DNA of 53,362 bases from a virus. The notes beneath the pieces are model-generated. The model made no database searches and was not told the DNA's origin. It saw only the letters and a list, made by a program, of their open reading frames with translations. A program made the translations under genes and the position numbers. Each line of letters starts with the position of its first letter. Position 1 is the stretch's first letter. Positions 1,640 to 15,483 of the stretch are shown here, one piece after another. The DNA lies in the IMG/VR virus record IMGVR_UViG_3300047160_009474, positions 1-53,362 of that record; one strand, written 5' to 3'.

Positions 1640-1659
1640 GTTGACAGATTAGTGTCAAC
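1640..1659. promoter_or_regulatory. Late-type inverted-repeat motif, perfect palindrome GTTGACA-gattag-TGTCAAC (contains TTGACA)
   Basis: 1636-1665 shares ATCTGTTGACA-N9-CAACGTGCGA with the copy upstream of the capsid gene (27521-27550, minus strand). Confidence 0.6.
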
Positions 1660-2265
1660 GTGCGATTGGGGCTTCATGGTTTACGAGACCCAGGATAGTC
1701 GCGAAGTTCAGATTTCGGTCTACGCGCCGAAACTTCAGACTATCCAAAGCGTAACCGAGGGGCGTCCTAGTCCGACCACCCTCAAACCCTCTGGTGCTCG
1801 TAACGCCAGAGGACATTTTGCCCCGGGTCGAAGTAACAGGGTTATCTTATCAGCAATGGTAATTCGAACCCCCTGTGACAAACCTTATCCGGGGCTTTCC
1901 GCACAAACCCATGGCCACCCTTTGGCCTGGCACTCCCACATCCTCAAAGGCATTGCTGCCCTTGGAAAGCGGGGAGTCCACCGGCCTAGGTCCCCCGCAG
2001 AGAGGATTAACACCTCCGCAGGATATCGACCGAATCCGCCCGCCCTGGACTGTGTCTGCGGAAGAAGTAAGAATCCCGGCTAAGGCCCTGCAGCCTCGTC
2101 ACAGATTATAGCCCTGGATTCGACCGGAGCAGTCGGAAGCTCTCCGACCCCGGAACCAACCATTGGGGGCGGTGTGTGTACAAGAGAAAGGCTCCCGGAG
2201 AATGCAACAACCCCAGGAGCCTCAAGGAAGCCAAACGAACCAATGACGTTAACCACCCTACCTCC

Positions 2266-2285
2266 GTCGCCACTCCACTGTCAAC
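2266..2285 (-). promoter_or_regulatory. Late-type inverted-repeat motif copy (minus-strand reading GTTGACA-gtggag-TGGCGAC)
   Basis: Minus strand GGTGTTGACAGtggaGTGGCgACGG closely matches the copy at 33229-33248, GGTGTTGACAGaataGTGGCaACGG. Confidence 0.5.
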
Positions 2286-2707
2286 ACCCCCCGAGGGGGC
2301 TCCCCCCAAAAGCCCGGACGCTAAGACCACAGATCGAAAGCACCGACACTCCCAGGGGACCCCCCTCCCACCAAGAGCTGGAGTTACCACAAAACCTACC
2401 CCCTGTCCAGTAACCCGTTGTGCCGCCAAATCTCCACCACCACGTCCTGCTGACGAAACCGCGCCTCGTTAATCCGTGAACGCACCTCCACCGGAAAGAC
2501 CCGCTCGGTCGCCATCGCCCGACACTCCCGCTGCCATAACCTCCCAACCGCAACCACATCCCGAGGCCGAGGTGCCCGCAACCGCACCGTTCTACGTGGA
2601 ACCGTTGCCATATCCCTGACACTGCCACATCGTCAGGCGAATCGTCAAAATACCCGGTGGATCGTCGGGGTGATCATCGCATAGCCCCCGGCGGCAAAAG
2701 GGATCAT

Positions 2708-2732
2708 GGGGTGGGGGGCGGTGGGGGTGGGG
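2708..2732 (+). other. Canonical G-quadruplex-forming tract GGGGTGGGGGGCGGTGGGGGTGGGG
   Basis: Four or more G-runs of at least 4 separated by 1-4 nt, read directly. It lies 19-43 nt beyond the stop of the minus-strand gene 2751..3215. Confidence 0.5.
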
Positions 2733-2750
2733 CTCGACACAAAGCATGCT

Positions 2751-3215
2751 TCATCCTGGCTCACTGGCTCCATTGTCACTCGACTGGCAACCATTGCTTT
2801 CCTGCTTTGGTGTAACTGGCTCAATATCAAGTACTTGTCCATTGTCGAGTGGACTACTACCAATAGTCGATTCTAGATTAAGTGACGAAAGCCCGTGATA
2901 CGTGGGGGGTTTTTCGGGGTGATACTGGCCCGGCCCGGGGATTTGGGCAACGTATGTCCATGCTCGGAATATGCGATCATACGCTCGGGTTAACCCGTCG
3001 TAAGCCTTAAAGCCAGTCGCTTTCAATAGGGCTTCATACAATCTCTCTTTCAATACGCTTAGGCGGGCAAGCTCCACCGCAATGGCTTCCGCACTGATTA
3101 CGGGTACTACCGGGCCGAGCGTACCGGGGTAAAGCTTCGCCAGTTTGTTCTGTTTCCGCTTTTCGTGGCCCCGGGCGGACATCTCCCGGGCATTTTGCGG
3201 AGTAAATAGCGGCAT
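2751..3215 (-). CDS. Hypothetical protein with a basic N-terminus (possible DNA-binding or small-terminase-like role, unverified)
   Basis: Track ORF 2751..3326 trimmed to the internal Met (MPLFTPQNAREMSARGHEKRKQNK...). Its acidic or polar C-terminus looks disordered. Confidence 0.45.
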   Translation of the reverse strand: MPLFTPQNAREMSARGHEKRKQNKLAKLYPGTLGPVVPVISAEAIAVELARLSVLKERLYEALLKATGFKAYDGLTRAYDRIFRAWTYVAQIPGPGQYHPEKPPTYHGLSSLNLESTIGSSPLDNGQVLDIEPVTPKQESNGCQSSDNGASEPG

Positions 3216-3317
3216 GCTGGGAATAGTCGCCCCGGGCCGCAGTGGGGTCAAGCAGTCGACTGGCTTTTGTGTCCCCCCAGGATGGAAAAATAAACCACGG
3301 TTGAGCGGGGTACACTG

Positions 3318-3346
3318 TTGACACATTGTGCCACATTCGGTAACTT
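3318..3346 (+). promoter_or_regulatory. Sigma70-like early promoter TTGACA-17-TAACTT with operator ATTGTGCCACATT in the spacer
   Basis: -35 at 3318-3323, -10 at 3341-3346, operator at 3325-3337. It sits at the head of the plus-strand early block. Confidence 0.6.
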
Positions 3347-3388
3347 AGGAGGAGTCGGGGCAATGAAGCCCGGCGAAACAAATAGAAA

Positions 3389-3397
3389 GTGACGCAG
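3389..3397 (+). promoter_or_regulatory. GTGACGCAG box 3 nt upstream of the start codon
   Basis: aatagaaaGTGACGCAGtttATG. The same extended context, aatagaaagtgacgcag, occurs at 4895-4911. Confidence 0.5.
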
Positions 3398-3400
3398 TTT

Positions 3401-3733
3401 ATGACATCGATCGAATTATTCAACGTTGCCCGGCAATTGGGCTTTCAACTCCAAAGTGTACAGAAATGCCCCGACTGTGGGCAGGTCTCAACTAAGCTCA
3501 CAAATTCAGTAGTGAAGTACTGCAAACATTGCGAGCATAATGTTACCGGAGGAGTTTGTTATCACGGTCAAACCGATGCCACAATTGATATGCTCGACTG
3601 CCAGGATTGTGGCGTTGCCCGGGCTGATTTTATCCGGGGCGCACAAGATACCATCCGGGAACAAATCACCTTTTTAGAGGATGTGCCTTGTGTCGACTAT
3701 GACGACTACAAAGCCAAATTCGCCCGCCTTTAG
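3401..3733 (+). CDS. Small Cys-rich (zinc-ribbon-like) early protein
   Basis: ATG at 3401; the track start at 3389 is the GTG inside the box. CxxC pairs: CPDCG, CKHCEH, CQDCG. Confidence 0.7.
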   Translation: MTSIELFNVARQLGFQLQSVQKCPDCGQVSTKLTNSVVKYCKHCEHNVTGGVCYHGQTDATIDMLDCQDCGVARADFIRGAQDTIREQITFLEDVPCVDYDDYKAKFARL

Positions 3734-3742
3734 ATAGTGCCC

Positions 3743-3786
3743 CACGTTGAGCCCCGGGCCACGCCTAGGGGTTCACTGTGACGCAG
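3743..3786 (+). repeat. Early intergenic hairpin element copy 1 (13-bp stem) ending in TGTGACGCAG
   Basis: CACGTTGAGCCCC (3743-3755) pairs with GGGGTTCACTGTG (3768-3780). It lies just after the stop at 3733. Confidence 0.75.
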
Positions 3787-3873
3787 TATTTAAACAATCA
3801 ATCGCCCGGGGCGCATGCCATCCGGGGACTTTTGTCCCCACTGCGTCACCATGCTCCTGGGCAAATCATGAGA

Positions 3874-3882
3874 GTGACGCAG
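3874..3882 (+). promoter_or_regulatory. GTGACGCAG box 1 nt upstream of the start codon
   Basis: gagaGTGACGCAGcATG. An inverted copy ACTGCGTCAC lies at 3840-3849. Confidence 0.5.
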
Positions 3883-3883
3883 C

Positions 3884-4609
3884 ATGATCAATTCGATCGA
3901 AACTATCCCCAGTAGGGGAATAAAACCCACAGTACTAAAACATCATCCCCGGTTCACCATTCCTGAACTTGTCCCCCTCAACGTGGGGCTTGCTTGGGAA
4001 TTAACTGGCGGACTATCGGAGCCCAGTAAAATGCCTTGCCATGGCTTTTCTACCCCTGCCCGGCGTTGCAACGTGGGGACAAAATTGCGCGAAGTCCCCG
4101 GTTCAATTTGTGAAATCTGTTACGCATTTGAACGTGGCAGGTATGGCTTTGAAGTAGTCCAGTTAGCTTTGGAGCGTAGGTACGAAGCTTTAATGAATGA
4201 GCCCCGGTGGACTGAAGCAATGGTCTGGCTCATTAATCGCTTTGAAAAGTCGGGGTACTTCCGCTGGTTTGATTCCGGGGATGTTCCTGACTTTGCCGCA
4301 TTGGAGAAGATCATTGAAGTAGTCCGCCAAACCCCCAGGATTAAACACTGGCTCCCTACCAAGGAATACGGGCTGATATCGCAATGGGTCAAAGCCCATG
4401 GGGCTTTTCCTAAAAACCTGACTGTACGCTTGTCCGCCTACATGGTGAACGGTGCCCCCCCTCGCGAGCTCGCCAAGCGTTTAGGGGTTTTAACATCCGG
4501 GGTTAAAAAACGGGGCTTTTCCTGCCCGGCATCATTGCAAGGCAATCAATGCGGGGAATGCCGCACCTGCTGGCAAAAACGGGGCAACGTTAACTATCAC
4601 AAGCATTAA
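3884..4609 (+). CDS. Cys-rich early protein, 241 aa (resembles, from memory, the phage 'gene product 88' type family; unverified)
   Basis: Long ORF with an ATG start. Motifs CEICYAFERGRYG, FRWFDSGD and a C-terminal CGECRTCW. Confidence 0.7.
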   Translation: MINSIETIPSRGIKPTVLKHHPRFTIPELVPLNVGLAWELTGGLSEPSKMPCHGFSTPARRCNVGTKLREVPGSICEICYAFERGRYGFEVVQLALERRYEALMNEPRWTEAMVWLINRFEKSGYFRWFDSGDVPDFAALEKIIEVVRQTPRIKHWLPTKEYGLISQWVKAHGAFPKNLTVRLSAYMVNGAPPRELAKRLGVLTSGVKKRGFSCPASLQGNQCGECRTCWQKRGNVNYHKH

Positions 4610-4614
4610 TTCCT

Positions 4615-4821
4615 ATGGAAGCCAATCAAAAGATCGTCAAATTGCGCCTTGTACGTAAAAGCGAAACAGCGGAATGGCTTGTGAAAGTTTGGGTGTGGGT
4701 AGGTGGCAAGTGGCTTTATTCGGAACTGGCAACGTATTACACGGATGATAAAGGTGACGCAGTAGCCACATTGTCAACCATGGCCCGGCAGTACTCCGCA
4801 CAAGGCTATTCACTTCTTTAA
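4615..4821 (+). CDS. Hypothetical small protein (68 aa)
   Basis: ATG lies 6 nt after the preceding stop. The sequence is non-repetitive and contains an internal in-frame GTGACGCAG (4754-4762). Confidence 0.6.
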   Translation: MEANQKIVKLRLVRKSETAEWLVKVWVWVGGKWLYSELATYYTDDKGDAVATLSTMARQYSAQGYSLL

Positions 4822-4902
4822 GCGCAATGATCACCCCATGCCCCCGGGCTGCAATCCCGTGGGGTATTGGGTGGCAATTACGCCACAAAAAACCAATAGA
4901 AA

Positions 4903-4911
4903 GTGACGCAG
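4903..4911 (+). promoter_or_regulatory. GTGACGCAG box 1 nt upstream of the start codon
   Basis: aatagaaaGTGACGCAGcATG. Confidence 0.5.
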
Positions 4912-4912
4912 C

Positions 4913-5227
4913 ATGAAGATTAGAAAACTCGCAACACCCCTCGGAAAGTACCGAGGCAAAAAGTACTATCGTTTCACCGTGTACTTTGAACAGTCTGGCA
5001 TAGGCTGGAATATCTCACGACCCATGGCGATCATTGCCAGTAGCGCGATCGAGGCATGCAACGCCATTCGGAACGAATTCGCCCATACGCTGGAGTACCC
5101 GGCGGAGTTTATTTGTTGCGGCCCGGCAGGGGGCAGGGTTGATCGCTTTGTCGGGTGGGAGTCAATGATCTGGGCTAAAATGGTTTCGACAATTCGCGGG
5201 CAGGAACAAATCCCACTACCCCTCTAA
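4913..5227 (+). CDS. Hypothetical protein (104 aa)
   Basis: ATG-initiated ORF directly behind the box. Confidence 0.65.
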   Translation: MKIRKLATPLGKYRGKKYYRFTVYFEQSGIGWNISRPMAIIASSAIEACNAIRNEFAHTLEYPAEFICCGPAGGRVDRFVGWESMIWAKMVSTIRGQEQIPLPL

Positions 5228-5231
5228 ACTT

Positions 5232-5606
5232 ATGACATCCAAACATAAAGAGCTCTTTTTTGTGAGCTCAACCGATGGTTGCCTACTGAGGCAAGATACT
5301 TGTCAGGTCGTACGCAAAAACTATTGCGGCCACCATATGCACATTGCGGACAATGAGGATTTTAAGGCTACACTCCGGGCCGGGCCTTACACTTTCCCGG
5401 GCTGCTATCCGCTCTTCTTTATCACCCGGGATAGTGGCGCAATTTGCTTCCCATGTGCTCAGAGGGAAGCCCGGCGAATAATGTCGAGCATTCGATCGGA
5501 TTGTAATGACGGGTGGCGCATAGAGGCATGCGACGTAAACTATGAGGATCCTCAACTCATGTGTGACCATTGCTCAAAGCCGATCCAATCAGCCTACGGA
5601 GATTAG
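5232..5606 (+). CDS. Cys-rich hypothetical protein (124 aa)
   Basis: ATG lies 5 nt after the preceding stop. Motifs FPGCYPLFFITRDSGAICFPCA and LMCDHCSKPI. Confidence 0.7.
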   Translation: MTSKHKELFFVSSTDGCLLRQDTCQVVRKNYCGHHMHIADNEDFKATLRAGPYTFPGCYPLFFITRDSGAICFPCAQREARRIMSSIRSDCNDGWRIEACDVNYEDPQLMCDHCSKPIQSAYGD

Positions 5607-5676
5607 CTAACACATGGGGCCAGGACAAACATTCTGGCCCCTTTCCGCATAGAACCAAAAACCAAAAAAGAGGAAA

Positions 5677-5685
5677 GTGACGCGC
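5677..5685 (+). promoter_or_regulatory. Variant box GTGACGCGC 4 nt upstream of a start codon
   Basis: aggaaaGTGACGCGCtgatATG. Confidence 0.4.
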
Positions 5686-5689
5686 TGAT

Positions 5690-5860
5690 ATGGAAACAGT
5701 ACCAAGCACACAGACGGGGCCGATCGAGAGTTCGATCGAGAGCTCGAACCCGATCGAGAGGCCCGATGTCTTTGCCATCTACCAGCTCCTCCGCAGGCAC
5801 AAGATTGAGGCTAAATATGTGGTCGAGTTTGCCCGCATTTTGCTCAACTCCACAGCGTAA
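5690..5860 (+). CDS. Small ORF (56 aa), below the track threshold
   Basis: METVPSTQTGPIESSIESSNPIERPDVFAIYQLLRRHKIEAKYVVEFARILLNSTA. It is preceded by the box variant and carries CGATCGAGAG three times. Confidence 0.45.
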   Translation: METVPSTQTGPIESSIESSNPIERPDVFAIYQLLRRHKIEAKYVVEFARILLNSTA

Positions 5861-5871
5861 TCTGATTGATT

Positions 5872-5915
5872 CACATTGAGCCCCGGGCTAAGGTCTAGGG
5901 GTTCACTGTGACCCA
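5872..5915 (+). repeat. Early intergenic hairpin element copy 2
   Basis: CACATTGAGCCCC (5872-5884) pairs with GGGGTTCACTGTG (5898-5910). It lies just after the stop at 5860. Confidence 0.75.
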
Positions 5916-5953
5916 AATAGGCCACATTAACATTAACCATCAAAACTAAGAAA

Positions 5954-5962
5954 GTGACGCAG
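5954..5962 (+). promoter_or_regulatory. GTGACGCAG box 3 nt upstream of the start codon
   Basis: aagaaaGTGACGCAGaatATG. Confidence 0.5.
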
Positions 5963-5965
5963 AAT

Positions 5966-6352
5966 ATGAGTGAACAAAAACCGAAACCCGATCAAGAGCT
6001 CGACCACAGACGATCGAGAGCTAACCCAATGAGCATTCTCGACTACATCAAGGCAGTGGATGAGGCCTTGGAACATCGCTACTGTGTCAGCATTGCGGAG
6101 GCTGGCATTGATGCGGCTGAGTTACTCACCGCCCAGGCGGAAGGCTGGAGCCCAGAGCAGTATGTCGAGTGGTTTGGAGAGAAGCACGACCTGACCGAGA
6201 AGAGCCAGTGGGACCTAGCTAAGGCCGTTGCGGAGTTAGCCCCCCAGTTCTGTTCCATGTGCGAGGGTCCCTTGATGCTGTTAGGAAGCTTGGGAAACCT
6301 CGCGCACTACCGGTGCCGTAATTGTGGCTTAGACTTTTCCCGTGGAGTGTAG
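5966..6352 (+). CDS. Hypothetical protein with a C-terminal zinc-ribbon-like motif (128 aa)
   Basis: ATG at 5966; the track start at 5954 is the GTG of the box. C-terminal CSMCEG...YRCRNCG. Confidence 0.7.
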   Translation: MSEQKPKPDQELDHRRSRANPMSILDYIKAVDEALEHRYCVSIAEAGIDAAELLTAQAEGWSPEQYVEWFGEKHDLTEKSQWDLAKAVAELAPQFCSMCEGPLMLLGSLGNLAHYRCRNCGLDFSRGV

Positions 6353-6360
6353 CCTACTCT

Positions 6361-6407
6361 CACGTTGAGCCCTTCTCAGGCTGGGGGGAGGGTTCACCGT
6401 GGCGCAG
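6361..6407 (+). repeat. Early intergenic hairpin element copy 3 (compensatory changes keep the stem)
   Basis: CACGTTGAGCCCT (6361-6373) pairs with AGGGTTCACCGTG (6389-6401). It lies just after the stop at 6352. Confidence 0.75.
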
Positions 6408-6512
6408 GCATTTTAACGCAGGTGACACATCATCATGCGGATGAAAAACAGAATAACCACAAACAACATCGATCGAGGCATCAAAACTGCCTACGGGGCG
6501 ATCGGGGGAAAG

Positions 6513-6521
6513 GTGACGCAG
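6513..6521 (+). promoter_or_regulatory. GTGACGCAG box overlapping a candidate GTG start
   Basis: ggaaagGTGACGCAGTGgca. Confidence 0.4.
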
Positions 6522-6703
6522 TGGCACAAGAGACAAAATACAAAGTATGGATTCATGTGACTAAAACCGATGCCTTTGATCCTGAGGATTCGACCGATAT
6601 CGCGGCAATGGATGAAGTAGCCTCGTTTCAAAGCGAAGACGAGGCCTTTCGATTTGTCGAGCGGCTAAAGTCGTTTCTGCCGATCATCGACCAGTCGGAA
6701 TAA
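6521..6703 (+). CDS. Small acidic hypothetical protein (~60 aa; start uncertain)
   Basis: In frame with track ORF 6365..6703, whose TTG start would run through the hairpin repeat. The GTG at 6521 abuts the box. The C-terminal part, VWIHVTKTDAFDPEDSTDIAAMDEV..., looks protein-like. Confidence 0.4.
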   Translation: MAQETKYKVWIHVTKTDAFDPEDSTDIAAMDEVASFQSEDEAFRFVERLKSFLPIIDQSE

Positions 6704-6717
6704 AGCAAAGATTCCAG

Positions 6718-6747
6718 TTGCAGGTTGTGCCACAACGAGCCTACTTT
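6718..6747 (+). promoter_or_regulatory. Sigma70-like promoter TTGCAG-18-TACTTT with perfect palindromic operator GTTGTGCCACAAC
   Basis: Operator at 6724-6736 abuts the -35. It lies upstream of the coupled gene set 6882-7805. Confidence 0.5.
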
Positions 6748-6881
6748 AGGACGTTTGTGACACAGGGACACATAGAGATAGACTTTTGTCCTGCTCCCAG
6801 GGAGCCGTGGGTTGCGCCCCGGTCTTTCAGGCTTTGCGGCCTGACTGCGTCACCCCCTGGGGGTAGGGCATTTTCGCATTT

Positions 6882-7049
6882 ATGAAAGCACCACAACTAC
6901 TCACACCCTTCGAACTGGCAATGCTGGCCGCACCATTCATAACCAACCTCAACCTGACCACCGAGGAAGCCTTCCTCCGGGCTCAGGAGCTGTTCTATGC
7001 GGCGGCGGATTACCTTCGGGAAAATGAAATACACCCAGATCAAAAGTAA
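6882..7049 (+). CDS. Small ORF (55 aa), below the track threshold
   Basis: MKAPQLLTPFELAMLAAPFITNLNLTTEEAFLRAQELFYAAADYLRENEIHPDQK. Its stop overlaps the next ATG (TAATG). Confidence 0.5.
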   Translation: MKAPQLLTPFELAMLAAPFITNLNLTTEEAFLRAQELFYAAADYLRENEIHPDQK

Positions 7050-7309
7050 TGCACCCGCCGGTTGGAAGCATGATCACCATTTGGCCTGAGGGTTCTCCCG
7101 AGGCCGAGGCCACTGCCACGCTATTGCTTCTCTCGGACAATCAGTTGAGTGCGGCCTTCGCCTTTGAGCACCTGCCCCGGTGGTACAACTCCTTTCCCGG
7201 GACCTTTATCAGCCTGGGCGAGGTGATCATGTTGGTGATCCGCCAGGACAAGACCGACCCCTGGACGGATCTGCGCGACGGTAAACACTACACAGTTAAA
7301 GAATTATGA
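7049..7309 (+). CDS. Hypothetical protein (86 aa)
   Basis: ATG overlaps the upstream stop, and its own stop overlaps the next ATG (ATGA). Confidence 0.6.
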   Translation: MHPPVGSMITIWPEGSPEAEATATLLLLSDNQLSAAFAFEHLPRWYNSFPGTFISLGEVIMLVIRQDKTDPWTDLRDGKHYTVKEL

Positions 7310-7485
7310 AAAGCCACCGACAAAAGCCCACCGACCGCAGAATGGACGCAGCGATCAAGGTTAAACTTCCCCGGCCCTGGTACCAAGATCTGAAGTTCCT
7401 GGCTGCCTGCGACTACGAGACAATTTCAATGCAGGTCCGCAGGGCGATTCGCCTATACCTCGATACCCGCCGGATCCACAAATGA
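7306..7485 (+). CDS. Ribbon-helix-helix (CopG/Arc-like) small DNA-binding protein (59 aa), below the track threshold
   Basis: AAIKVKLPRPWYQDLKFLAACDYETISMQVRRAIRLYL fits a beta-strand plus two helices pattern. ATGA overlaps on both sides. Confidence 0.55.
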   Translation: MKSHRQKPTDRRMDAAIKVKLPRPWYQDLKFLAACDYETISMQVRRAIRLYLDTRRIHK

Positions 7486-7805
7486 AAAAGTTTGGCCGAT
7501 ATATCCTGGTCGATGGCAAGCCGGTGCCTGAGCTGGACCTGATCAGGTGGGCCGAGTGGTTTGGTAAAACCTCCAATCGCGCTGTGGCCAGCACCCAGGT
7601 GGGTAAATCCAACATCGATACCTGCTTTCTGGGGATCGACCACAATTTCCACGTTAATGGACCCCCCATCCTCTGGGAGACACTCGTCTTTGGCGGACCA
7701 CTCCAGGGCACCATGGACCGTTGCGCCGGGTCCCGGGAACAGGCCGAGGCCATGCATGCCAGCATGGTTGAACGGGTCAAGCAGGCAAAAAAGATTTGTC
7801 CCTAA
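7482..7805 (+). CDS. Hypothetical protein (107 aa)
   Basis: ATGA-coupled to the RHH gene. Motif FLGIDHNFHVNGPPILWETLVFGG. Confidence 0.65.
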   Translation: MKKFGRYILVDGKPVPELDLIRWAEWFGKTSNRAVASTQVGKSNIDTCFLGIDHNFHVNGPPILWETLVFGGPLQGTMDRCAGSREQAEAMHASMVERVKQAKKICP

Positions 7806-7845
7806 CCGTCCGTAACCAACAACACAAAAAAAGAAAGGTCTGAAA

Positions 7846-8064
7846 ATGAACGATACACCAGCAACAAAACAACCCGACCAACGCATTCGCGCTTTGGTTT
7901 GGATGATCCTGTGCATGCTCGCCTATCTGGCCGTGATCACCGCCACTTACTTCTTATTCTTCCAGAGGGGTGACTGGCGCAGTGGGGTCGGAGTCTTTGG
8001 GGGCCTGTGCGTGATCACGTACCTACTGGCGATAGTTGCGCTCTTCAAACCTCACCGCCAATAA
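7846..8064 (+). CDS. Small membrane protein with two hydrophobic helices (72 aa)
   Basis: Hydrophobic stretches LVWMILCMLAYLAVITATYFLFF and VGVFGGLCVITYLLAIVALF. Confidence 0.65.
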   Translation: MNDTPATKQPDQRIRALVWMILCMLAYLAVITATYFLFFQRGDWRSGVGVFGGLCVITYLLAIVALFKPHRQ

Positions 8065-8088
8065 CCTCCTAACCGAGCTAACCCTATT

Positions 8089-8910
8089 ATGAAGAACAAA
8101 TTCTGTGCTGGCCAGTTTGGCGTTTCGATCCTGCTGGCTTCAATCTTTGCGACTCTCACCCCCATGCAGGCCGGTGCCGACAGTGGCGTGACAGTCAAAG
8201 TGCAAACTCTCACCGTCTATGTGCCTGCACCACCAGCTGGCCAACCGTGGCAACTGCCTGCCTCCATCCCGGAGAAGCTGCGAGGCAAAGTTCTGGAGCT
8301 CATCGGAATCACTCCCCCAGGCGTTCCCATAGTCATCGCGCCGGAAGGAACCTCACCCACCCTCATTCAACAGGCCAAAACCGCCGCCATAAAGCAGTCC
8401 ATTGTCACGCAGGGAGCCGGGCCTGCCGGGCCAACTCCACAGTCCTGCCTGGCCTGTGTTCTGGTCATCATCCTGGTCGTTGTCTGCGGAGTGGCCATCT
8501 ACGTGGTTTGGAAATGCGCTAAAAAGATAGACAAGGTCAACACCAACACCGGTCCAGGCGACCCGGCCATTCTGCGCCAGCTTCCACCGGCTCAACCCTC
8601 GGCCTTCCCCCCAACCTTAAGCGGTGACGACTCCAACTCGACCAATGCCTTCTGCACCATCGAAGGGACTACCGACCTCTCCGCTCCCAACTGGGCACCG
8701 ATGTTCACGCTGGTGTGTGTCACCAATGCTGACGGGATCCCCAGCGTTTATGCCATGAACCCGAGCAATATTCTGGTCGGTGCCTCATCGGTAATAACCA
8801 ACTCGGCCAACCCGGCTGAACTGGATACCACCACTCCGCTCAACCTGCCCTATCCAGGTCCAGGCCCAACACCACCCAACCTCTTCTTTCGGATGAACCT
8901 GCACAACTAA
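8089..8910 (+). CDS. Signal-peptide-bearing, membrane-anchored surface protein (273 aa); candidate lysogenic-conversion or exclusion gene
   Basis: N-terminal VSILLASIFATLTPMQAGA, a central helix CLACVLVIILVVVCGVAIYVVW, a Pro-rich linker, and a position next to the integrase. Confidence 0.65.
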   Translation: MKNKFCAGQFGVSILLASIFATLTPMQAGADSGVTVKVQTLTVYVPAPPAGQPWQLPASIPEKLRGKVLELIGITPPGVPIVIAPEGTSPTLIQQAKTAAIKQSIVTQGAGPAGPTPQSCLACVLVIILVVVCGVAIYVVWKCAKKIDKVNTNTGPGDPAILRQLPPAQPSAFPPTLSGDDSNSTNAFCTIEGTTDLSAPNWAPMFTLVCVTNADGIPSVYAMNPSNILVGASSVITNSANPAELDTTTPLNLPYPGPGPTPPNLFFRMNLHN

Positions 8911-8932
8911 AAGCAATCTCTTCTAAAAAGGG

Positions 8933-8975
8933 ACACCCCCTGGCTGATAAAGGCCAAGGGGTGTTTCTGTTTTTA
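8933..8975. terminator. Bidirectional intrinsic terminator between convergent genes
   Basis: ACACCCCCTGGC (8933-8944) pairs with GCCAAGGGGTGT (8953-8964) with one mismatch. A T-run follows at 8964-8975 and an A-run precedes at 8925-8930. Confidence 0.7.
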
Positions 8976-8987
8976 CTGCTGCCCTAC

Positions 8988-10199
8988 TCAGTCCTTCAGG
9001 ACAGCTTCGGGGGTTAACGCCCAGAACTTGGCAGCCTCCTCCGGTTTAACCAGTTTGCGGTAGTGGGAGAAGAGAATCCCCCAGTCGCCATGCCCCATTG
9101 CGGCCATGGTCTTGTCCACCCCGTGAATCGGCAGGAAGTTGGAGGCAAACGTGTGCCGCAGGACATCCTTGCCCCAACCATTCCAGAGGATTTTCTTGTA
9201 GTAATGGTGCTTGGTCGGATCCTTCTTGCGGGTCTTCTTGCCTTTGACGTTGGTTAACGTGATGAGCCCGGCTGCGGCCCGGACATCCCGGAACCGTTCG
9301 GCATGATTCTTGGGGTTGTACTCACCACCTGGGACCGCCAACCATGCCTTGAGTGTGTCATGGATTGGGACATAGCGTAACTGCTTGTCCTTGGCATGCG
9401 AGGCGGGGACTTCCAGCATGTCCCCCTGGATATGCACCTTGCTCAATTTGCGGGCTTCCCGTATCGGTCGGCACCCGGCAAACATCCCGCAAGCGATGAA
9501 GGGAATCAGGCCAGGATCGGTCTTCAAGGCGGCTCTCAGGAGTGCCCTGCATTGCTCCACAGTTAAGATATGAGGGGCTTTGTCGAACCCGGGCATCCTT
9601 TTCTTCGGAATCATCTTAAAAGCGTCCGTTGGCAGTTCTGTGACATACTTGTGTTTCTTGCAGTAACCAAAAAAGTTCTTCAAGGCGCACAGGTTGGCAT
9701 TCTTGTTCTGGGGGTGCATATCCTGCTGGGTAAACCACTGCCTGAGCATGTCAATGGTCACCAGGGCGACCTCCAGTTGCTCCCGGCCCCGGATGAACTT
9801 GTTAAGCTGGCACCGGTAAAACTTGAGCGTGTCCTTGGACAGACCGTCCGCCTTTTTATCGACCATGTATTCGTTAAAGGCATCCTCCAGGGTCCGCCGG
9901 GCCAGGGGTTTATTGGCAATGTTCTGGAAGGCCTGCCACACGGTGCGGAGCGCAATTCCCTTGCGGCTAATCTCCTCCAAGATCGTGAGCGTATCTAATC
10001 TGACTGCCGGGTTCATCTGGGTCCAAAACTCCGACTCCCCGTTCAGGGCCAGGACCGATTCCTGCTCGGCTTTGGCAGCCTCATACCCATCGAAGAACTT
10101 GCGCTGCCGTTTCTTCTCACCGTTCTCATCGGGCGTGAACCAGGACACCATGTATTGCTCTTTGTCCCGGACTTTTACTTTGTTGATCGTCACTTTCAT
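8988..10199 (-). CDS. int: Tyrosine recombinase (phage integrase), 403 aa
   Basis: C-terminal catalytic pattern ...LRHTFASNFL...GHGDWGILFSHYRK (R, HxxR, H, Y). N-terminal SAM-like or arm-binding region. Confidence 0.85.
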   Translation of the reverse strand: MKVTINKVKVRDKEQYMVSWFTPDENGEKKRQRKFFDGYEAAKAEQESVLALNGESEFWTQMNPAVRLDTLTILEEISRKGIALRTVWQAFQNIANKPLARRTLEDAFNEYMVDKKADGLSKDTLKFYRCQLNKFIRGREQLEVALVTIDMLRQWFTQQDMHPQNKNANLCALKNFFGYCKKHKYVTELPTDAFKMIPKKRMPGFDKAPHILTVEQCRALLRAALKTDPGLIPFIACGMFAGCRPIREARKLSKVHIQGDMLEVPASHAKDKQLRYVPIHDTLKAWLAVPGGEYNPKNHAERFRDVRAAAGLITLTNVKGKKTRKKDPTKHHYYKKILWNGWGKDVLRHTFASNFLPIHGVDKTMAAMGHGDWGILFSHYRKLVKPEEAAKFWALTPEAVLKD

Positions 10200-13481: not shown

Positions 13482-13688
13482 ATGGATCTAATGACAGAAG
13501 TTATCGAGAGCCGGGTACGCAATCGCATCCTCCATTTCCTGCTCATGCGAAACGAGCAACTGCTGCAGGAAGCCAAGAAGTCGACCGGCGAGAACATTCA
13601 GGAACTCAAGATTCGGGCCGATGAGCTCACCAAGCTCAAGGCATTACTGGACTATGACCAGAAAGAAACAATCGAGGTGCAAGCATGA
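13482..13688 (+). CDS. Small coiled-coil protein (68 aa)
   Basis: Heptad-like charged sequence. Its stop overlaps the next ATG. Confidence 0.55.
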   Translation: MDLMTEVIESRVRNRILHFLLMRNEQLLQEAKKSTGENIQELKIRADELTKLKALLDYDQKETIEVQA

Positions 13689-14473
13689 GCGAAGCAGTTG
13701 AACTAGTGAAAGAGGAAAAGCCTGCGCTGCCCCAGCAGCCCGATGACCTGTTGCGGCTGGCGGTTGAACGTGGAGCCAGCGTCGACACCATCGAGCGGCT
13801 CATGGTGGTGCGCCGGGAGTTAAATGCCGAAAGAGCCAAGGCCGAATACGATGAGGCACTCTCAGCCTTTCAGGAGGAATGCCCCATCATCAACAAGACT
13901 AAATCTGGTGCCAGGGATGCGTATCGCTATGCCCCGCTCGACTCCATTGTCGCCCAGGTCAAACACCTGATCCGCAAACACGGTTTCTCCTACAAGGCCA
14001 ACGCACCGACCATTCCCAAACCCAACTGGGTCAAGGCAACCATCACCGTGACGCATAAAGCGGGTCACTCGGAGACTTCCGAATTCGAAGTACCGGTCGA
14101 TGACAAGAATCCACTGATGACCGGCCCCCAGCGTTTTGGAGCTTCCCTGACCTTCGCCAAACGCTATGTCTTCTGCAACGCATTCGGGATTTTAACGCAA
14201 GACGAGGACATGGACGGTGCCACTAACCGCCCCAAACCCAAAGGCCCCTCCACGGTCGCGCCCGATGAGCCCACCAAGAAAGAGTTGGCCAGTCAACTCT
14301 GGAAAGTTTTAAAGACCGTCCGGGGCACCGAGGCCAATTGGAATGCCGCCAACCAGTGGCTCTGGCGCGAGGAAATTCTGGATGCGGCGGTGCCGGAAGC
14401 TGCGCCCAACCTTTCCAATGCCCGGTTCAAGGAAGTCATCACCAAAGCCAAAGAGATTCTATGTCCTTCTTAA
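13685..14473 (+). CDS. erf: ERF-family single-strand annealing protein (262 aa)
   Basis: ...YRYAPLDSIVAQVKHLIRKHGFSY...HKAGHSE...GPQRFGASLTFAKRYVFCNAFGILTQDEDMDG matches the ERF signature as I remember it. Confidence 0.7.
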   Translation: MSEAVELVKEEKPALPQQPDDLLRLAVERGASVDTIERLMVVRRELNAERAKAEYDEALSAFQEECPIINKTKSGARDAYRYAPLDSIVAQVKHLIRKHGFSYKANAPTIPKPNWVKATITVTHKAGHSETSEFEVPVDDKNPLMTGPQRFGASLTFAKRYVFCNAFGILTQDEDMDGATNRPKPKGPSTVAPDEPTKKELASQLWKVLKTVRGTEANWNAANQWLWREEILDAAVPEAAPNLSNARFKEVITKAKEILCPS

Positions 14474-15483
14474 ACTGCACTGCCAGACTGGGGGTCAAGA
14501 CCGACCCTCGCCTCTACCATGCCGCCAAAGGCGAACGAGGCAACCCGGACTACATCATGTCCCCCTCCCAAATCATCAACTTCGACCGGCTGCCCTCACG
14601 CTGGCTCAAGGGATGGAACCCTCCAGCCGCCAGGGCGATGCGCTGGGGCAACATCATCGATACCCTGGCTCTGACACCCGAGATCTTCATGGAGCGGTAC
14701 GTGGTGCGGCCCGAAAGCTACCCGGCCAAAGACGGCAAGACCAAGAAGTGGAATGGCAACTCCACCTGGTGCCAGACCTGGATGGCTGAACACGCACTCA
14801 ATGGGGTGGGGATTCTGACCTGCCAGGAAAGTATTGCCGCCGCCGCTGCCGTCATGGAGATAGTCATCCCCAAGAATGGCGATGACACCATCCGCCGGTG
14901 GTTTGATGCCTCCGACAAGCAAGTGATGGTCGCAGGCGAGTGGAAAGATGAAGACACCGGGCTCACCATTCCCATCTCGGCACTGCTGGATTTTGTTCCC
15001 AAGGCCGACAGTGAGTTTCCCTCCTGTCTAGGGGACTTAAAAACCGTGGCGAGTGGGGAGCCTCAGATGTTTGCCCGCAAGGCTTTCAGGTTTGGCTATC
15101 ACATTCAGGCAGCCTTCGACCTGGATATCTTCAACGCCGCGACCGGCCAGAAACGGGATACCTGGTGCTTCATCCTGAGTGAAAGTTTCGAGCCCTGGGA
15201 AAGCACTCGCGCCATGTTTGGCATGGAAGGCGAACAAGGCAACCCGGGGTTCATTGAACTGGGCCGGGACGCTTACAAACGGATCCTGGCCACTTACTGT
15301 CGGTGCCTGGCGACCGGCAAATGGCCCGGCTACAACCAAACCGATGAAGCCGTGCAAGGCTGGTGCATCCTGAGGCCTGAGCCATTCATGGCGCAGAAGG
15401 CATTGTTCGCACCCAGGTACGAAATCGAAGACGAAGACATCGAGCAAGAGGACTTAGAACCTGACGATGTCCCGACACCGTGA
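14461..15483 (+). CDS. PD-(D/E)xK recombination exonuclease (YqaJ/Cas4-like fold), 340 aa
   Basis: ATG at 14461 (the track start at 14338 lies inside erf). Motif CLGDLKTV (D..ExK-type). Adjacent to the annealase. Confidence 0.55.
   Translation: MSFLNCTARLGVKTDPRLYHAAKGERGNPDYIMSPSQIINFDRLPSRWLKGWNPPAARAMRWGNIIDTLALTPEIFMERYVVRPESYPAKDGKTKKWNGNSTWCQTWMAEHALNGVGILTCQESIAAAAAVMEIVIPKNGDDTIRRWFDASDKQVMVAGEWKDEDTGLTIPISALLDFVPKADSEFPSCLGDLKTVASGEPQMFARKAFRFGYHIQAAFDLDIFNAATGQKRDTWCFILSESFEPWESTRAMFGMEGEQGNPGFIELGRDAYKRILATYCRCLATGKWPGYNQTDEAVQGWCILRPEPFMAQKALFAPRYEIEDEDIEQEDLEPDDVPTP

What the first reader, a model, noticed from the sequence alone, without database searches (positions are those of the whole stretch)
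3389..6853. GTGACGCAG box 1-4 nt upstream of (or overlapping) six early start codons
Start-proximal copies:
- 3389 (3 nt before the ATG)
- 3874 (1 nt)
- 4903 (1 nt)
- 5677 (variant GTGACGCGC, 4 nt)
- 5954 (3 nt)
- 6513 (overlapping a GTG)

The copies usually follow an A-rich GAAA. Further copies lie in hairpin copy 1 (3778-3786) and inside a gene (4754-4762). Inverted copies ACTGCGTCAC lie at 3840-3849 and 6844-3853's counterpart 6844-6853, each near a shared GACTTTTGTCC 11-mer (3827-3837 and 6781-6791).

The box occupies the place of a Shine-Dalgarno sequence but is not purine-rich, and classical SDs are rare in this genome. It is confined to 3.4-6.9 kb.

Three ideas fit: a translational operator for a RegA-like early-gene repressor, a promoter or TSS element giving near-leaderless mRNAs, or a non-SD ribosome-recruitment signal.

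The ORF track is misled by the box: its GTG is taken as the start at 3389 and 5954.
Basis: seen in the sequence. Interest (0 to 1): 0.65.

Follow-up and report, generated by a model that had tools for sequence, protein, structure and literature searches.

The report
Start-codon box with antisense copies
In an otherwise unrelated soil phage, six early genes carry the same 9-letter box just before their start codons, and the same strand holds two exact complements of it, which points to shared translational control, possibly by a small antisense RNA.

Summary
GTGACGCAG occurs 9 times (7 on +, 2 on -), against 0.41 expected, and every copy lies in 3389-6853. Five exact + copies and one variant end between -1 and 4 nt from the start codon of a cistron.

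The six boxed cistrons all follow a long gap (the 5' leader, or 83-168 nt with a strong hairpin). The two tightly coupled cistrons lack the box. Two boxed starts are confirmed by the N-termini of homologues.

No relative of this phage exists in any collection searched, so conservation could not be tested.

The closest known thing is the Start-Associated Sequence (SAS/ESAS) of Cluster K mycobacteriophages and Cluster EF Microbacterium phages, whose function is still unknown. This box differs in three ways. It lacks the Shine-Dalgarno core and has only a weak GAAAG flank. It sits in a 3.5-kb island of distinct composition. It has two same-strand complements.

One complement forms a hairpin with the box of gene 2. 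The other is exposed in a 10-nt single-stranded junction of a very stable, strand-specific structure (6787-6870) just downstream of a sigma70-like promoter.

My best reading, at confidence 0.4, is an mRNA-level start-associated operator gated by antisense pairing, as with phage P1 c4 RNA. The rivals are a protein operator, a DNA "stoperator", and a near-leaderless promoter. I class it as a new variant of a known kind.

The parts
3318..3346 (+). Sigma70-like promoter TTGACA-17-TAACTT at the head of the boxed module.
   Evidence: Read. It fails the scan's 4/6 rule for the -10 hexamer. It is homologous to the 3' half of the hp1-3 repeat.
3349..3392 (+). Strong SD (AGGAGG, 3349-3354) followed by a 9-codon mini-ORF from ATG 3364 to TGA 3390-3392. 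The stop codon lies inside box 3389.
   Evidence: Sequence. A second mini-ORF, 4838-4906, also ends at the TGA of box 4903; box 5954 has no such mini-ORF (read).
3389..3397 (+). Box copy, 3 nt before ATG 3401 (g1, a 110-aa zinc-ribbon protein with no homologues).
3743..3780 (+). Hairpin hp1, just after the g1 stop codon. It is one of three related hairpins of the form CACGTTGAGCCC...GGGTTCAC.
   Evidence: Folds to -23.8 kcal/mol with z -3.06 on the + strand, against z -0.28 on the - strand. Alignment.
3778..3786 (+). Box copy not at a start codon, directly 3' of hp1. It can pair with the anti-box at 3840-3849 over 10 bp.
3824..3839 (+). Perfect hairpin GGGGACUUUUGUCCCC, which contains the shared 11-mer.
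3840..3849 (+). Anti-box 1, ACTGCGTCAC. It is the exact complement of the box on the mRNA strand.
   Evidence: In the minimum-energy fold of the gap (z -3.92) it pairs with box 3874-3882.
3874..3882 (+). Box copy, 1 nt before ATG 3884 (g2, GP88 family PF17338).
4754..4762 (+). Box copy inside g3, with no start codon after it.
4831..4874 (+). Hairpin in the g3-g4 gap.
   Evidence: the 94-nt gap folds to -34.4 kcal/mol, z -2.42.
4903..4911 (+). Box copy, 1 nt before ATG 4913 (g4).
5616..5641 (+). Hairpin GGGGCCAGGA...UCCUGGCCCC followed by UUUCC, in the g5-g6 gap.
5677..5685 (+). Variant box GTGACGCGC, 4 nt before ATG 5690 (g6).
5871..5911 (+). Hairpin hp2, followed by a degenerate box GTGACCCAA (5908-5916).
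5954..5962 (+). Box copy, 3 nt before ATG 5966 (g7).
6360..6402 (+). Hairpin hp3, followed by a degenerate box GTGGCGCAG (6399-6407). That variant could still pair with the anti-box through a G-U wobble.
   Evidence: Folds to -37.5 kcal/mol, z -4.36, against z -1.63 on the - strand.
6513..6521 (+). Box copy whose last G begins the in-frame GTG 6521 (g8; this start is uncertain).
6757..6784 (+). Sigma70-like promoter GTGACA-16-TAGACT. Its -35 hexamer is part of a one-mismatch box, GTGACACAG.
6787..6870 (+). Highly structured RNA: a 16-bp closing stem, two inner hairpins, and a 10-nt single-stranded junction. A U-rich tail (AUUUUCGCAUUU) follows, then ATG 6882. It is a candidate small antisense RNA or regulatory leader.
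   Evidence: Folds to -52.4 kcal/mol with z -4.55 and 0 of 200 shuffles as good. The - strand gives only -38.8 kcal/mol, z -1.98. No Rfam match.
6844..6853 (+). Anti-box 2, ACTGCGTCAC, exposed in the single-stranded junction (6845-6854) of the structure above.
   Evidence: P(all 9 nt unpaired) = 0.45, the 97th percentile of all 9-mers in 3300-7200. Structure.

Best explanation
The box is a start-associated sequence. It is a cis-element in the mRNA of a roughly 3.5-kb early module, placed between a weak ribosome contact and the start codon. That contact is an A-rich tract plus GAAAG, which other genes of this phage also use. The box marks every cistron that has to initiate independently, after a long gap containing a hairpin.

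The invariant 9-mer is the recognition site of a sequence-specific trans-factor that gates initiation on all six cistrons together. The most likely factor is RNA, because the same strand carries two exact complements (ACUGCGUCAC).
- Anti-box 1 sits between a non-start box (3778) and the box of gene 2 (3874). It can pair with either one, which would make a local on/off switch for gene 2.
- Anti-box 2 is displayed single-stranded in a very stable structure of about 85 nt (6787-6870). That structure begins at the predicted start of a sigma70-like promoter and ends in a U-rich tail. It is a candidate small antisense RNA, or the leader of the next operon. It would pair with the boxes and block 30S binding once the next transcription unit is switched on.

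What is shown:
- The enrichment of the box.
- Its adjacency to start codons.
- The rule that boxed genes follow a gap.
- The strand-specific RNA structures.
- The predicted exposure of anti-box 2.

What is inferred:
- That these RNAs are made.
- That they pair.
- That pairing represses translation.
For: **The box.**
- Enrichment and confinement: 9 copies against 0.41 expected, all in 3389-6853.
- Adjacency to starts: P about 1e-8. Two starts are confirmed by homologue N-termini.
- Sharp conservation boundary: the 9-mer is invariant while the flanks average 50% identity.
- Boxed cistrons follow the 5' leader or gaps of 83-168 nt. The cistrons g3 and g5, with gaps of 5 and 4 nt, are unboxed.
- The GAAAG(G) flank also serves unboxed genes.

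**The complements.**
- By my estimate from region length, about 0.013 reverse-complement copies would be expected by chance in 3.5 kb. Two are seen, and both are in non-coding gaps.
- Anti-box 1 pairs with box 3874 in the minimum-energy fold: -68.9 kcal/mol, z -3.92. The alternative pairing with box 3778 costs only 5.3 kcal/mol more.
- Anti-box 2 has P(unpaired) = 0.45, the 97th percentile.
- It lies in a structure of -52.4 kcal/mol, z -4.55.
- That structure is much weaker on the other strand, z -1.98.
- A promoter-like GTGACA-16-TAGACT ends 2 nt before the structure begins.
- Predicted duplexes with boxed start regions are -17 to -36 kcal/mol. For most unboxed start regions they are about -4 to -14 kcal/mol.

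**Cross-system hint.**
- In mycobacteriophage Anaya, the single reverse-orientation SAS copy lies in a 385-nt gene-free gap.
- On the SAS-gene strand it forms the 10-nt loop of a long hairpin.
- That hairpin is kept in 11 diverse Cluster K phages: 16 pairs, one compensatory change, and several wobble changes.
Against: - No RNA data exist for this contig, so no transcript, 5' end or 3' end is known.
- No relatives exist, so covariation between box and anti-box cannot be tested.
- Complementarity is only 9-11 nt and does not extend consistently into the flanks.
- The boxes themselves have only average predicted accessibility, 50th to 82nd percentile.
- The variant box at 6757 would mismatch the anti-box (A-C).
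- The structure at 6787-6870 is not a canonical terminator hairpin, and gene 9 starts immediately after it. It may therefore be only a 5' leader.
- In phage Hammy the homologous hairpin loop has changed (CCUCCUUCCCC) while the SAS has not. The cross-system parallel is therefore imperfect.
- Inverted copies are equally expected for a DNA-binding protein.
Confidence: 0.4

Rival explanations
1. The box is a protein translational operator. A phage or host RNA-binding protein, for example one of the small zinc-ribbon proteins g1, g5 or g7, binds the box in the mRNA and represses or activates initiation of the six cistrons. This would resemble RegA or Com. The anti-boxes would be a local cis-hairpin or decoys.
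For: - The position and gap rule are the same as for the best explanation.
- The 9-mer is invariant, which suits sequence-specific recognition.
- The first boxed gene encodes a zinc-ribbon protein, which would allow autoregulation.
Against: - No RegA, Com or other RNA-binding family was detected in about 40 ORFs.
- The candidate proteins are orphans.
- This reading does not explain why an exact complement is displayed single-stranded in a strong, strand-specific structure.
Confidence: 0.2
2. The box is a DNA operator of the 'stoperator' kind. A phage repressor binds the asymmetric 9-13-bp site in double-stranded DNA at many places in the operon and blocks elongating RNA polymerase, keeping the module silent in the prophage.
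For: - Copies occur in both orientations.
- The phage is temperate, with an integrase at 8988-10199.
- Most copies are co-oriented with transcription.
- A one-mismatch copy overlaps the -35 hexamer of the 6757 promoter.
- The precedent is L5 gp71 and its stoperators (PMC9283540, PMC6550527, seen as abstracts).
Against: - Sites are confined to 3.5 kb rather than spread over the genome.
- The gaps are 83-168 nt, yet each box sits within 4 nt of the start codon. A roadblock does not need that placement.
- No box overlaps the module's own promoter at 3318.
- No helix-turn-helix protein was found next to the module.
- Other palindromic operator-like sites (TTGACA-N6-TGTCAA) exist elsewhere for a conventional repressor.
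- The structures around the boxes are RNA-strand-specific.
Confidence: 0.15
3. The box is a promoter core. The A-rich tract plus nAnnGT acts as a -10 element, GACGCAG as a GC-rich discriminator, and transcription starts at the last G of the box. This would give mRNAs with 0-5-nt leaders, with one promoter per cassette after each terminator-like hairpin.
For: - In 9 of 10 copies the hexamer ending at the box's T has A at '-11' and T at '-7' (note written).
- At 6513 the GTG start begins exactly at the predicted +1.
- Each gap has a hairpin upstream.
- In phages L160-L162, almost every early gene has TTGACA-17-TAnnnT-6-ATG, that is, a leaderless promoter. This includes the orthologue of gene 2.
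Against: - There is no -35 element, no extended -10, and no T at -12. The scan finds no promoter at any box.
- The phage has consensus-like promoters elsewhere (3318, 6757), so it does not lack them.
- Perfect conservation of a discriminator is unusual for a sigma70 promoter.
- No phage RNA polymerase or sigma factor was detected.
- Copies inside g3 and on the opposite strand have no gene to serve.
Confidence: 0.12
4. The box has no dedicated function. It would be the conserved junction of small gene cassettes that spread by duplication or illegitimate recombination, like the promoter-stem-loop cassettes of T4-type phages. In that case it is kept only by recent common descent.
For: - Two copies share 39 nt at 79% identity (family D6).
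- The hairpins hp1-3 and the 3318 promoter region are paralogous.
- The module is a compositional island: GC about 0.51 against about 0.57 elsewhere, and 10 of the window's 12 CGATCG sites.
Against: - The flanks have diverged to about 50% identity while the 9-mer is intact in 9 copies. That pattern suggests selection, not recent copying.
- The inverted copies share only the 9-10-mer.
Confidence: 0.08
5. The box is a pure ribosome-recruitment signal that pairs with ribosomal RNA outside the anti-SD sequence, with no regulator involved.
For: - The box sits where an SD sequence would.
- AGAAAG could pair with a CUUUCU 3' tail of 16S rRNA. This rests on general knowledge; the host is unknown.
Against: - The invariant part is the 9-mer, not the rRNA-complementary flank.
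- Unboxed genes use GAAAGG alone.
- This reading cannot explain the inverted copies, or copies 3778 and 4754 that have no start codon.
Confidence: 0.05

Closest known systems
[quoted passage not shown] Sources: PMC3203893, PMC11373665, PMC7302621, PMC12699233.
   Same: - A short asymmetric motif in many identical copies.
- It lies a few nt upstream of start codons, mostly ATG.
- It occurs only in the non-structural, early part of a temperate phage.
- It precedes genes that follow gaps of more than 50 bp.
- It has one orientation, plus a rare reverse copy that is not at a start.
- Conservation extends beyond what rRNA pairing needs.
- Inverted-repeat or promoter elements lie upstream in the same gaps.
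- A stop codon of an upstream ORF sometimes falls inside the motif.
- Its function is unknown.
   Different: - The sequences are unrelated.
- The invariant part here has no AGGAG core, and only a weak GAAAG flank is SD-like.
- There are only six starts, all in one 3.5-kb island.
- There are two reverse copies, each in a structured RNA.
- The host is unknown, and the phage is not an actinophage by any homology found.
- Conservation across relatives cannot be shown.
c4 antisense RNA of phages P1 and P7 (immI operon c4-icd-ant). Sources: Citron and Schuster 1990, as cited in PMC8198154; the detail on repeated target sites flanking c4 is from my own knowledge.
   Same: - A small structured RNA is encoded on the same strand and in the same transcription region as its targets.
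- Short complementary stretches in its single-stranded regions pair with the ribosome-binding region of a downstream gene and block translation.
- Copies of the target sequence lie both upstream and downstream of the RNA, as with box 3778, anti-box 3840 and box 3874 here.
   Different: - There is no sequence or Rfam match to any RNA family.
- Here the target is repeated at six cistrons rather than one.
- Expression and processing are unknown.
Stoperators of Cluster A mycobacteriophages (L5 gp71 repressor). Sources: PMC9283540, PMC6550527.
   Same: - A short asymmetric repeated site in short non-coding stretches.
- It is mostly co-oriented with transcription.
- The phage is temperate.
   Different: - Stoperators are spread over the whole genome, are 13-14 bp long, and act on DNA.
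- Here the sites are confined to one module, sit hard against start codons, and are surrounded by RNA-strand-specific structure.
T4 RegA translational operators, and Mu Com with the mom mRNA (from my own knowledge).
   Same: One small phage protein controls initiation on several early mRNAs (RegA), or a zinc-finger protein acts on a start region (Com).
   Different: - RegA sites are AU-rich, degenerate, and overlap the AUG.
- No RegA or Com homologue was found here.
Leaderless early promoters of the metagenomic phages L160-L162, seen here.
   Same: - One regulatory signal abuts the ATG of each small early gene.
- They share the GP88-family gene.
   Different: - Those signals are textbook TTGACA-17-TAnnnT promoters.
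- The box has neither hexamer.

Membership tests
SAS/ESAS (start-associated sequences of actinophages) | Many near-identical copies of a short asymmetric motif. | tested here: met
   9 exact copies against 0.41 expected.
SAS/ESAS (start-associated sequences of actinophages) | Copies lie a few nt (3-9) upstream of start codons, mostly ATG. | tested here: met
   Six copies end between -1 and 4 nt from a start codon, five of them ATG. Two starts are confirmed by homologues.
SAS/ESAS (start-associated sequences of actinophages) | Restricted to the non-structural, early part of the genome. | tested here: met
   All copies lie in 3389-6853. The structural genes are at about 20-53 kb.
SAS/ESAS (start-associated sequences of actinophages) | Associated with genes that follow gaps of more than 50 bp. 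| tested here: met
   Boxed genes follow the 5' leader or gaps of 83-168 nt. The genes g3 and g5, with gaps of 5 and 4 nt, lack the box.
SAS/ESAS (start-associated sequences of actinophages) | One orientation, with a rare reverse copy that is not at a start. | tested here: met
   Seven forward and two reverse copies, and neither reverse copy precedes a gene.
SAS/ESAS (start-associated sequences of actinophages) | Contains the Shine-Dalgarno core (AGGAG or AGGA) complementary to 16S rRNA. | tested here: not met
   GTGACGCAG has no SD core. Only the variable 5' flank GAAAG is SD-like.
SAS/ESAS (start-associated sequences of actinophages) | A subset has an upstream inverted repeat containing a SigA-like promoter (ESAS). 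| tested here: inconclusive
   Every gap has a strong hairpin, and three share a conserved sequence. Only the hairpin-less copy at 3318 has a good -35/-10 pair.
SAS/ESAS (start-associated sequences of actinophages) | Conserved at the same genes across related phages. | not testable with these tools
   No relatives were found.
c4-type same-strand antisense RNA | The complement of the target's ribosome-binding region is encoded on the same strand. | tested here: met
   ACTGCGTCAC at 3840-3849 and 6844-6853.
c4-type same-strand antisense RNA | The complementary stretch is single-stranded within a stable RNA structure. | tested here: met
   In silico only. Anti-box 2 has P(unpaired) 0.45, the 97th percentile, in a structure with z -4.55. 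Anti-box 1 is instead paired with box 3874.
c4-type same-strand antisense RNA | Homology to the curated C4 RNA family. | tested here: not met
   No Rfam match at the gathering score or at E<=1.
c4-type same-strand antisense RNA | The RNA is made or processed, and represses translation. | not testable with these tools
   No RNA runs hold this sequence.
L5-type stoperator | Sites are distributed across the genome in both arms. | tested here: not met
   All copies lie within 3.5 kb of the 53-kb window.
L5-type stoperator | One site acts as the operator at the early promoter. | tested here: not met
   No box lies in the 3318 promoter. Only a one-mismatch copy lies at the -35 hexamer of the 6757 promoter.
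L5-type stoperator | Bound by the immunity repressor. | not testable with these tools
   No repressor was identified.
RegA-type translational operator | A RegA-family protein is encoded by the phage. | tested here: not met
   No such Pfam or PHROG hit in about 40 ORFs scanned. Not every ORF was scanned.
RegA-type translational operator | An AU-rich, degenerate site that overlaps the AUG. | tested here: not met
   The box is GC-rich, invariant, and upstream of the AUG.
Sigma70 leaderless promoter | TTGACA-like -35 and TAnnnT -10, with the start codon at +1. | tested here: not met
   No conserved -35 element, and the -10-like hexamer lacks T at -12. Compare the clear examples.

The most novel reading that the evidence does not exclude
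A phage-encoded antisense RNA coordinates translation of a whole multi-gene early module. It would do so by pairing with one shared 9-nt box placed in the SD-to-AUG spacer of every independently initiating cistron. The same logic, an 'anti-SAS' loop RNA, would then explain the start-associated sequences of Cluster K mycobacteriophages, which have been unexplained since 2011. In those phages the lone reverse SAS copy forms the loop of a conserved hairpin in a gene-free gap.
Probability: 0.3. Interest if true: 0.8.

Novelty: new variant of a known kind. Interest (0 to 1): 0.6.

Why it matters
Start-associated sequences have been catalogued in hundreds of actinophage genomes since 2011 without a mechanism.

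This contig shows the same architecture in a phage that shares no detectable ancestry with them, and with the Shine-Dalgarno core removed. That separates the "extra" conserved letters from ordinary ribosome binding and shows they are the point of the element.

The exact same-strand complements, one of them exposed in a strong RNA structure, turn a descriptive puzzle into a testable model. In that model, one small RNA switches off, or times, a set of early genes at the level of initiation.

If true, the model could be tested at once in tractable mycobacteriophages. It would also add a compact multi-gene translational switch to the known repertoire of phage regulation.

Tried and rejected
**Searches for relatives, all empty or at chance level.**
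- blastn of 3000-9000 against GenBank phages found nothing.
- The 14-mer AGAAAGTGACGCAG in IMG/VR gave single chance hits and coding tandem repeats. L049's 20-nt match lies inside an AT-rich coding ORF.
- Protein-anchored scans of IMG/VR with the integrase and g7 found nothing.
- The 5.8-billion-protein search showed that g1 and ORF 8089-8910 are orphans.
- The nearest g2 homologues (62% identity or less) sit in non-syntenic phages without the box.
- The hairpin 18-mer in JGI metagenomes and the box 17-mer in GTDB genomes gave only chance hits.
- Two 24-nt identities in Paenibacillus appear to be the antisense of an integrase-like coding sequence (my reading, KLRHFLL).
- The g7 homologue P0135 has no box upstream.

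**Sequencing runs.**
- The soil runs hold only the identical sequence at very low depth, so they give no variants.
- No RNA runs hold this sequence.

**Ideas considered and rejected.**
- The box as an N-terminal coding sequence: rejected because its frame relative to the ATG differs among copies.
- The box's TGA as a general stop codon for upstream mini-ORFs: true at 3389 and 4903 but not at 5954.
- The box as a -35 element: rejected because there is no consistent -10 element 17 nt downstream.
- A T7-like single-subunit polymerase promoter: rejected because the conserved part is too short and no polymerase was found.
- attP arm sites, an origin of replication, or iterons: rejected because spacing is irregular over 3.5 kb.

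**Other dead ends.**
- Rfam and tRNA scans were negative.
- A literature search for the 9-mer returned only aptamer primers.

Full report
**1. The observation**

GTGACGCAG occurs 9 times in the 53,362-nt window: seven copies on the + strand and two on the - strand. All lie between 3389 and 6853. Dinucleotide-preserving shuffles expect 0.41 copies, and none of 100 reaches 9. One-mismatch copies outside the region are at chance level.

Read against the sequence, the + copies stand as follows.

| Box | Distance to start | Gene |
|---|---|---|
| 3389 | 3 nt before ATG 3401 | g1 |
| 3874 | 1 nt before ATG 3884 | g2 |
| 4903 | 1 nt before ATG 4913 | g4 |
| 5677 (variant GTGACGCGC) | 4 nt before ATG 5690 | g6 |
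| 5954 | 3 nt before ATG 5966 | g7 |
| 6513 | its last G begins the in-frame GTG 6521 | g8 |

The g8 start is uncertain, because ATG 6608 is an alternative. Copies 3778 (in a gap) and 4754 (inside g3) have no start codon after them.

Only 1.4% of positions in the region abut a gene start. The chance of at least 5 of 7 copies doing so is about 1e-8.

Two boxed starts are corroborated independently:
- g2's N-terminus MINSIETI matches homologue P0006, MINEPISVI.
- g7's MSEQKPKP matches P0135, MSDQKPSP. This favours ATG 5966 over both the box's own GTG and the Met-22 start at which the collection's own entry P0123 begins.

The frame between the box and the ATG differs among copies, so the box is not coding.

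**2. Anatomy**

An alignment of the six start-proximal copies shows an invariant core GTGAC-G-C. The full 9-mer is intact in five of the six. It is preceded by an A-rich tract and GAAAG (GAGAG once, GAAAGG once). Otherwise the flanks average about 50% identity. So the 9-mer, not its flank, is what is held constant.

GAAAGG(T) about 6 nt before the ATG also precedes unboxed genes at 7846, the integrase, and 17547. Only 11 of 60 crude genes have any 4-nt SD core. The flank is therefore this phage's ordinary weak ribosome contact, and the box fills the spacer between it and the start codon.

The boxed cistrons follow either the 5' leader or gaps of 83-168 nt. The two cistrons that abut their upstream neighbour (g3 with a 5-nt gap, g5 with 4 nt) have no box.

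Each long gap holds a strong hairpin directly after the upstream stop codon. Three of these (hp1 at 3743, hp2 at 5871, hp3 at 6360) are paralogous. They are also related to the region of the module's sigma70-like promoter, TTGACA-17-TAACTT at 3318.

The hairpins fold far better on the + strand than on the - strand:

| Hairpin | z on + strand | z on - strand |
|---|---|---|
| hp1 | -3.06 | -0.28 |
| hp3 | -4.36 | -1.63 |

So they are features of the sense RNA.

The module is also a compositional island. GC dips to about 0.51 against about 0.57 elsewhere. Ten of the window's twelve CGATCG sites fall in 3300-6900.

**3. The inverted copies**

By my estimate from region length, about 0.013 reverse complements of a given 9-mer are expected by chance in 3.5 kb. 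Two are present, both in non-coding gaps, and neither is followed by a gene on the other strand. A signal that works only in the sense orientation, such as a ribosome site or a promoter, does not predict them. A DNA-binding protein or an RNA-RNA interaction does.

*Anti-box 1 (3840-3849)* lies between box 3778 and box 3874.
- The minimum-energy fold of the gap pairs it with box 3874, sequestering the region just before the g2 start. This fold is -68.9 kcal/mol, z -3.92.
- Pairing with box 3778 instead costs only 5.3 kcal/mol more.
- So two mutually exclusive structures are available.

*Anti-box 2 (6844-6853)* lies in the 178-nt gap after g8.
- The stretch 6787-6870 folds into a 16-bp closing stem, two inner hairpins, and a 10-nt single-stranded junction that is exactly CUGCGUCACC.
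- This fold is -52.4 kcal/mol, z -4.55, with 0 of 200 shuffles as good.
- The opposite strand gives only -38.8 kcal/mol, z -1.98.
- In a sliding local-folding calculation, the 9 nt of anti-box 2 are all unpaired with probability 0.45. That is the 97th percentile of all 9-mers in 3300-7200. The boxes themselves are average.
- The only + strand promoter-like site the scan reports in 2200-9000, GTGACA-16-TAGACT (6757-6784), ends 2 nt before this structure begins.
- A U-rich tail follows the structure, and then the ATG of g9.

No Rfam family and no tRNA matches anywhere in the window.

**4. Relatives**

None could be found.
- There is no DNA match in GenBank phages.
- There is no IMG/VR relative of the integrase or of g7.
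- g1 and ORF 8089-8910 are singletons among 5.8 billion protein clusters.
- Pattern scans of IMG/VR, JGI metagenomes and GTDB genomes return only chance hits.
- The soil runs that hold the sequence hold it identically and at very low depth.
- No RNA runs are available.

Only g2 (GP88 family) has homologues, at 62% identity or less, and they sit in unrelated phages. There the orthologous ATG, like most early genes, is preceded by TTGACA-17-TAnnnT-6. That is one textbook promoter per gene, with the start codon at +1.

So the box is a property of this phage's regulatory system and not of the genes. It also means a signal abutting the ATG can be a promoter in this kind of gene neighbourhood.

**5. 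Mechanism**

I commit to an mRNA-level start-associated operator. The evidence for the mRNA level is:
- the position in the SD-to-AUG spacer,
- the rule that only cistrons which cannot rely on coupling carry the box,
- the sharp conservation boundary,
- the sense-strand-specific RNA structure around the boxes.

For the partner, I favour antisense pairing by the same-strand complements:
- a cis switch at g2, made of box 3778, anti-box 1 and box 3874;
- a trans or long-range interaction from the exposed anti-box 2 in the structured RNA, which the next promoter would produce.

Pairing over positions -1 to -12 would exclude the 30S subunit. Once the downstream unit is on, the six cistrons would be shut off together. 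Everything beyond the sequence and folding results is inference.

Overall confidence in this reading is 0.4. I put about 0.6 on the broader claim that the box is an mRNA-level initiation control element.

The rivals are:

| Rival | Confidence | Main argument against |
|---|---|---|
| Protein operator | 0.2 | No candidate family was found in about 40 ORFs |
| DNA stoperator-like site | 0.15 | Sites are confined to one module, hug the ATG within 83-168-nt gaps, and none lies at the 3318 promoter |
| Near-leaderless promoter | 0.12 | No -35 element and a poor -10, although A at '-11' and T at '-7' hold in 9 of 10 copies and one search gives a precedent |
| Cassette-junction relic | 0.08 | Flanks have diverged while the 9-mer has not |
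| rRNA-pairing recruiter | 0.05 | The invariant part is the 9-mer, not the rRNA-complementary flank |

**6. Comparison with what is known**

The closest described phenomenon is the Start-Associated Sequence of Cluster K mycobacteriophages. Its features (PMC3203893) are:
- a 13-bp asymmetric motif, GGGATAGGAGCCC, in 11-19 copies;
- copies 3-7 nt before start codons, mostly ATG;
- copies only in the non-structural arm;
- copies at genes that follow gaps of more than 50 bp;
- one orientation, plus a single reverse copy that is not at a start;
- about half the copies preceded by an inverted repeat (ESAS).

The ESAS was later read as a SigA-like promoter plus an operator (PMC11373665). A similar motif, GGGAAAGGACCCC, occurs in Cluster EF Microbacterium phages (PMC7302621). 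The function was still open in 2025 (PMC12699233).

The window meets five of the defining features. It fails one (there is no SD core in the invariant part), and two cannot be decided. The sequences are unrelated. Hence my classification: a new variant of a known kind.

Mechanistically, the nearest established system is the c4 antisense RNA of P1 and P7. It is encoded in the same operon as its target and blocks the icd ribosome site (PMC8198154, citing Citron and Schuster 1990). There is no homology to it.

**7. A cross-check in the known system**

In phage Anaya, the single reverse SAS copy lies in a 385-nt gene-free gap between gp96 and gp97. On the strand of the SAS genes it reads CCUCCUAUCC. 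That stretch is exactly the 10-nt loop of a long GC-rich hairpin: the 151-nt region folds to -76.6 kcal/mol, z -4.52.

The region is conserved in 138 Cluster K records. In 11 diverse members the 16-pair hairpin is kept, with one compensatory change and several wobble changes.

In Hammy, however, the loop has changed to CCUCCUUCCCC while the SAS is unchanged. Pairing there would need a one-nt bulge. Some records also annotate a hypothetical protein across the region.

The papers read do not mention such an RNA. This is a weak, independent hint that start-associated boxes come with an exposed complement.

**8. Verdict**

The feature is real and statistically solid. It is not an ordinary Shine-Dalgarno site and not a classical promoter. 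It is the first SAS-like system I can point to outside actinophages. It comes with a concrete and testable antisense hypothesis, but it rests on one orphan contig with no expression data. I score interest at 0.6.

Noticed in passing
window 3300-6900, compared with the rest of the window: CGATCG occurs 12 times in the window, and 10 of those are in 3300-6900, often as CGATCGAG(A/G)G within the first 10-60 nt of boxed genes. GC also dips to about 0.51 there. The boxed module looks like a compositional island of different origin.
   Followed up: partly
window 5721-5747 and 5989-6025: There are four copies of a 15-mer, CGATCGAGAGCTCGA, in the 5' coding parts of g6 and g7 (family D2). Their meaning is unknown.
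   Followed up: no
whole window (3233, 5117, 9273, 11950, 12270, 14705, 25125, 26211, 28244, 35616, 37783, 48011): A second over-represented 9-mer, TGCGGCCCG, has 12 copies (6 on each strand) against 0.94 expected. It is dispersed over the whole contig.
   Followed up: partly
window 1641-1658 and 28888-28905: Palindromes of the form TTGACA-N6-TG(T/A)CAA occur as 3 strand-matches against 0.04 expected. Each starts about 35 nt before an ATG (1676 on +, 28869 on -). They are candidate promoter-plus-operator sites for a conventional repressor.
   Followed up: partly
window 3349-3392 and 4838-4906: A strong SD (AGGAGG) precedes a 9-codon mini-ORF whose TGA stop lies inside box 3389. A 22-codon mini-ORF likewise ends in box 4903, and both peptides end in ...TNRK. 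This suggests possible termination-reinitiation coupling into g1 and g4.
   Followed up: partly
L160, L161, L162 (metagenomic phage contigs carrying GP88 homologues): Most small early genes have TTGACA-N17-TAnnnT-N6 immediately followed by ATG. That is one consensus promoter per gene and apparently leaderless mRNAs throughout the early region.
   Followed up: partly
L207 29850-29900 (Mycobacterium phage Anaya, record positions about 59,850-59,900): The lone reverse-orientation SAS copy forms the 10-nt loop (CCUCCUAUCC) of a long hairpin in a 385-nt gene-free gap. The hairpin is kept in 11 diverse Cluster K phages. In Hammy the loop differs while the SAS does not.
   Followed up: partly
whole window: The contig is a temperate-phage-like genome with very few recognisable genes. 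Those recognised are an integrase (8988-10199, -), ERF (13685-14473), an exonuclease VIII-like gene (14461-15483), a large terminase (38118-39875, -), and a 1,932-aa open-ended ORF with DUF6884 (47566-53361). Several proteins have no homologue in 5.8 billion clusters.
   Followed up: partly
window 2281-3326, - strand: The long - strand ORFs here (191 aa and 115 aa) have odd, low-complexity translations and no family hits. It is unclear whether the 1.2 kb between gene 1676-2083 and the 3318 promoter is coding at all.
   Followed up: no
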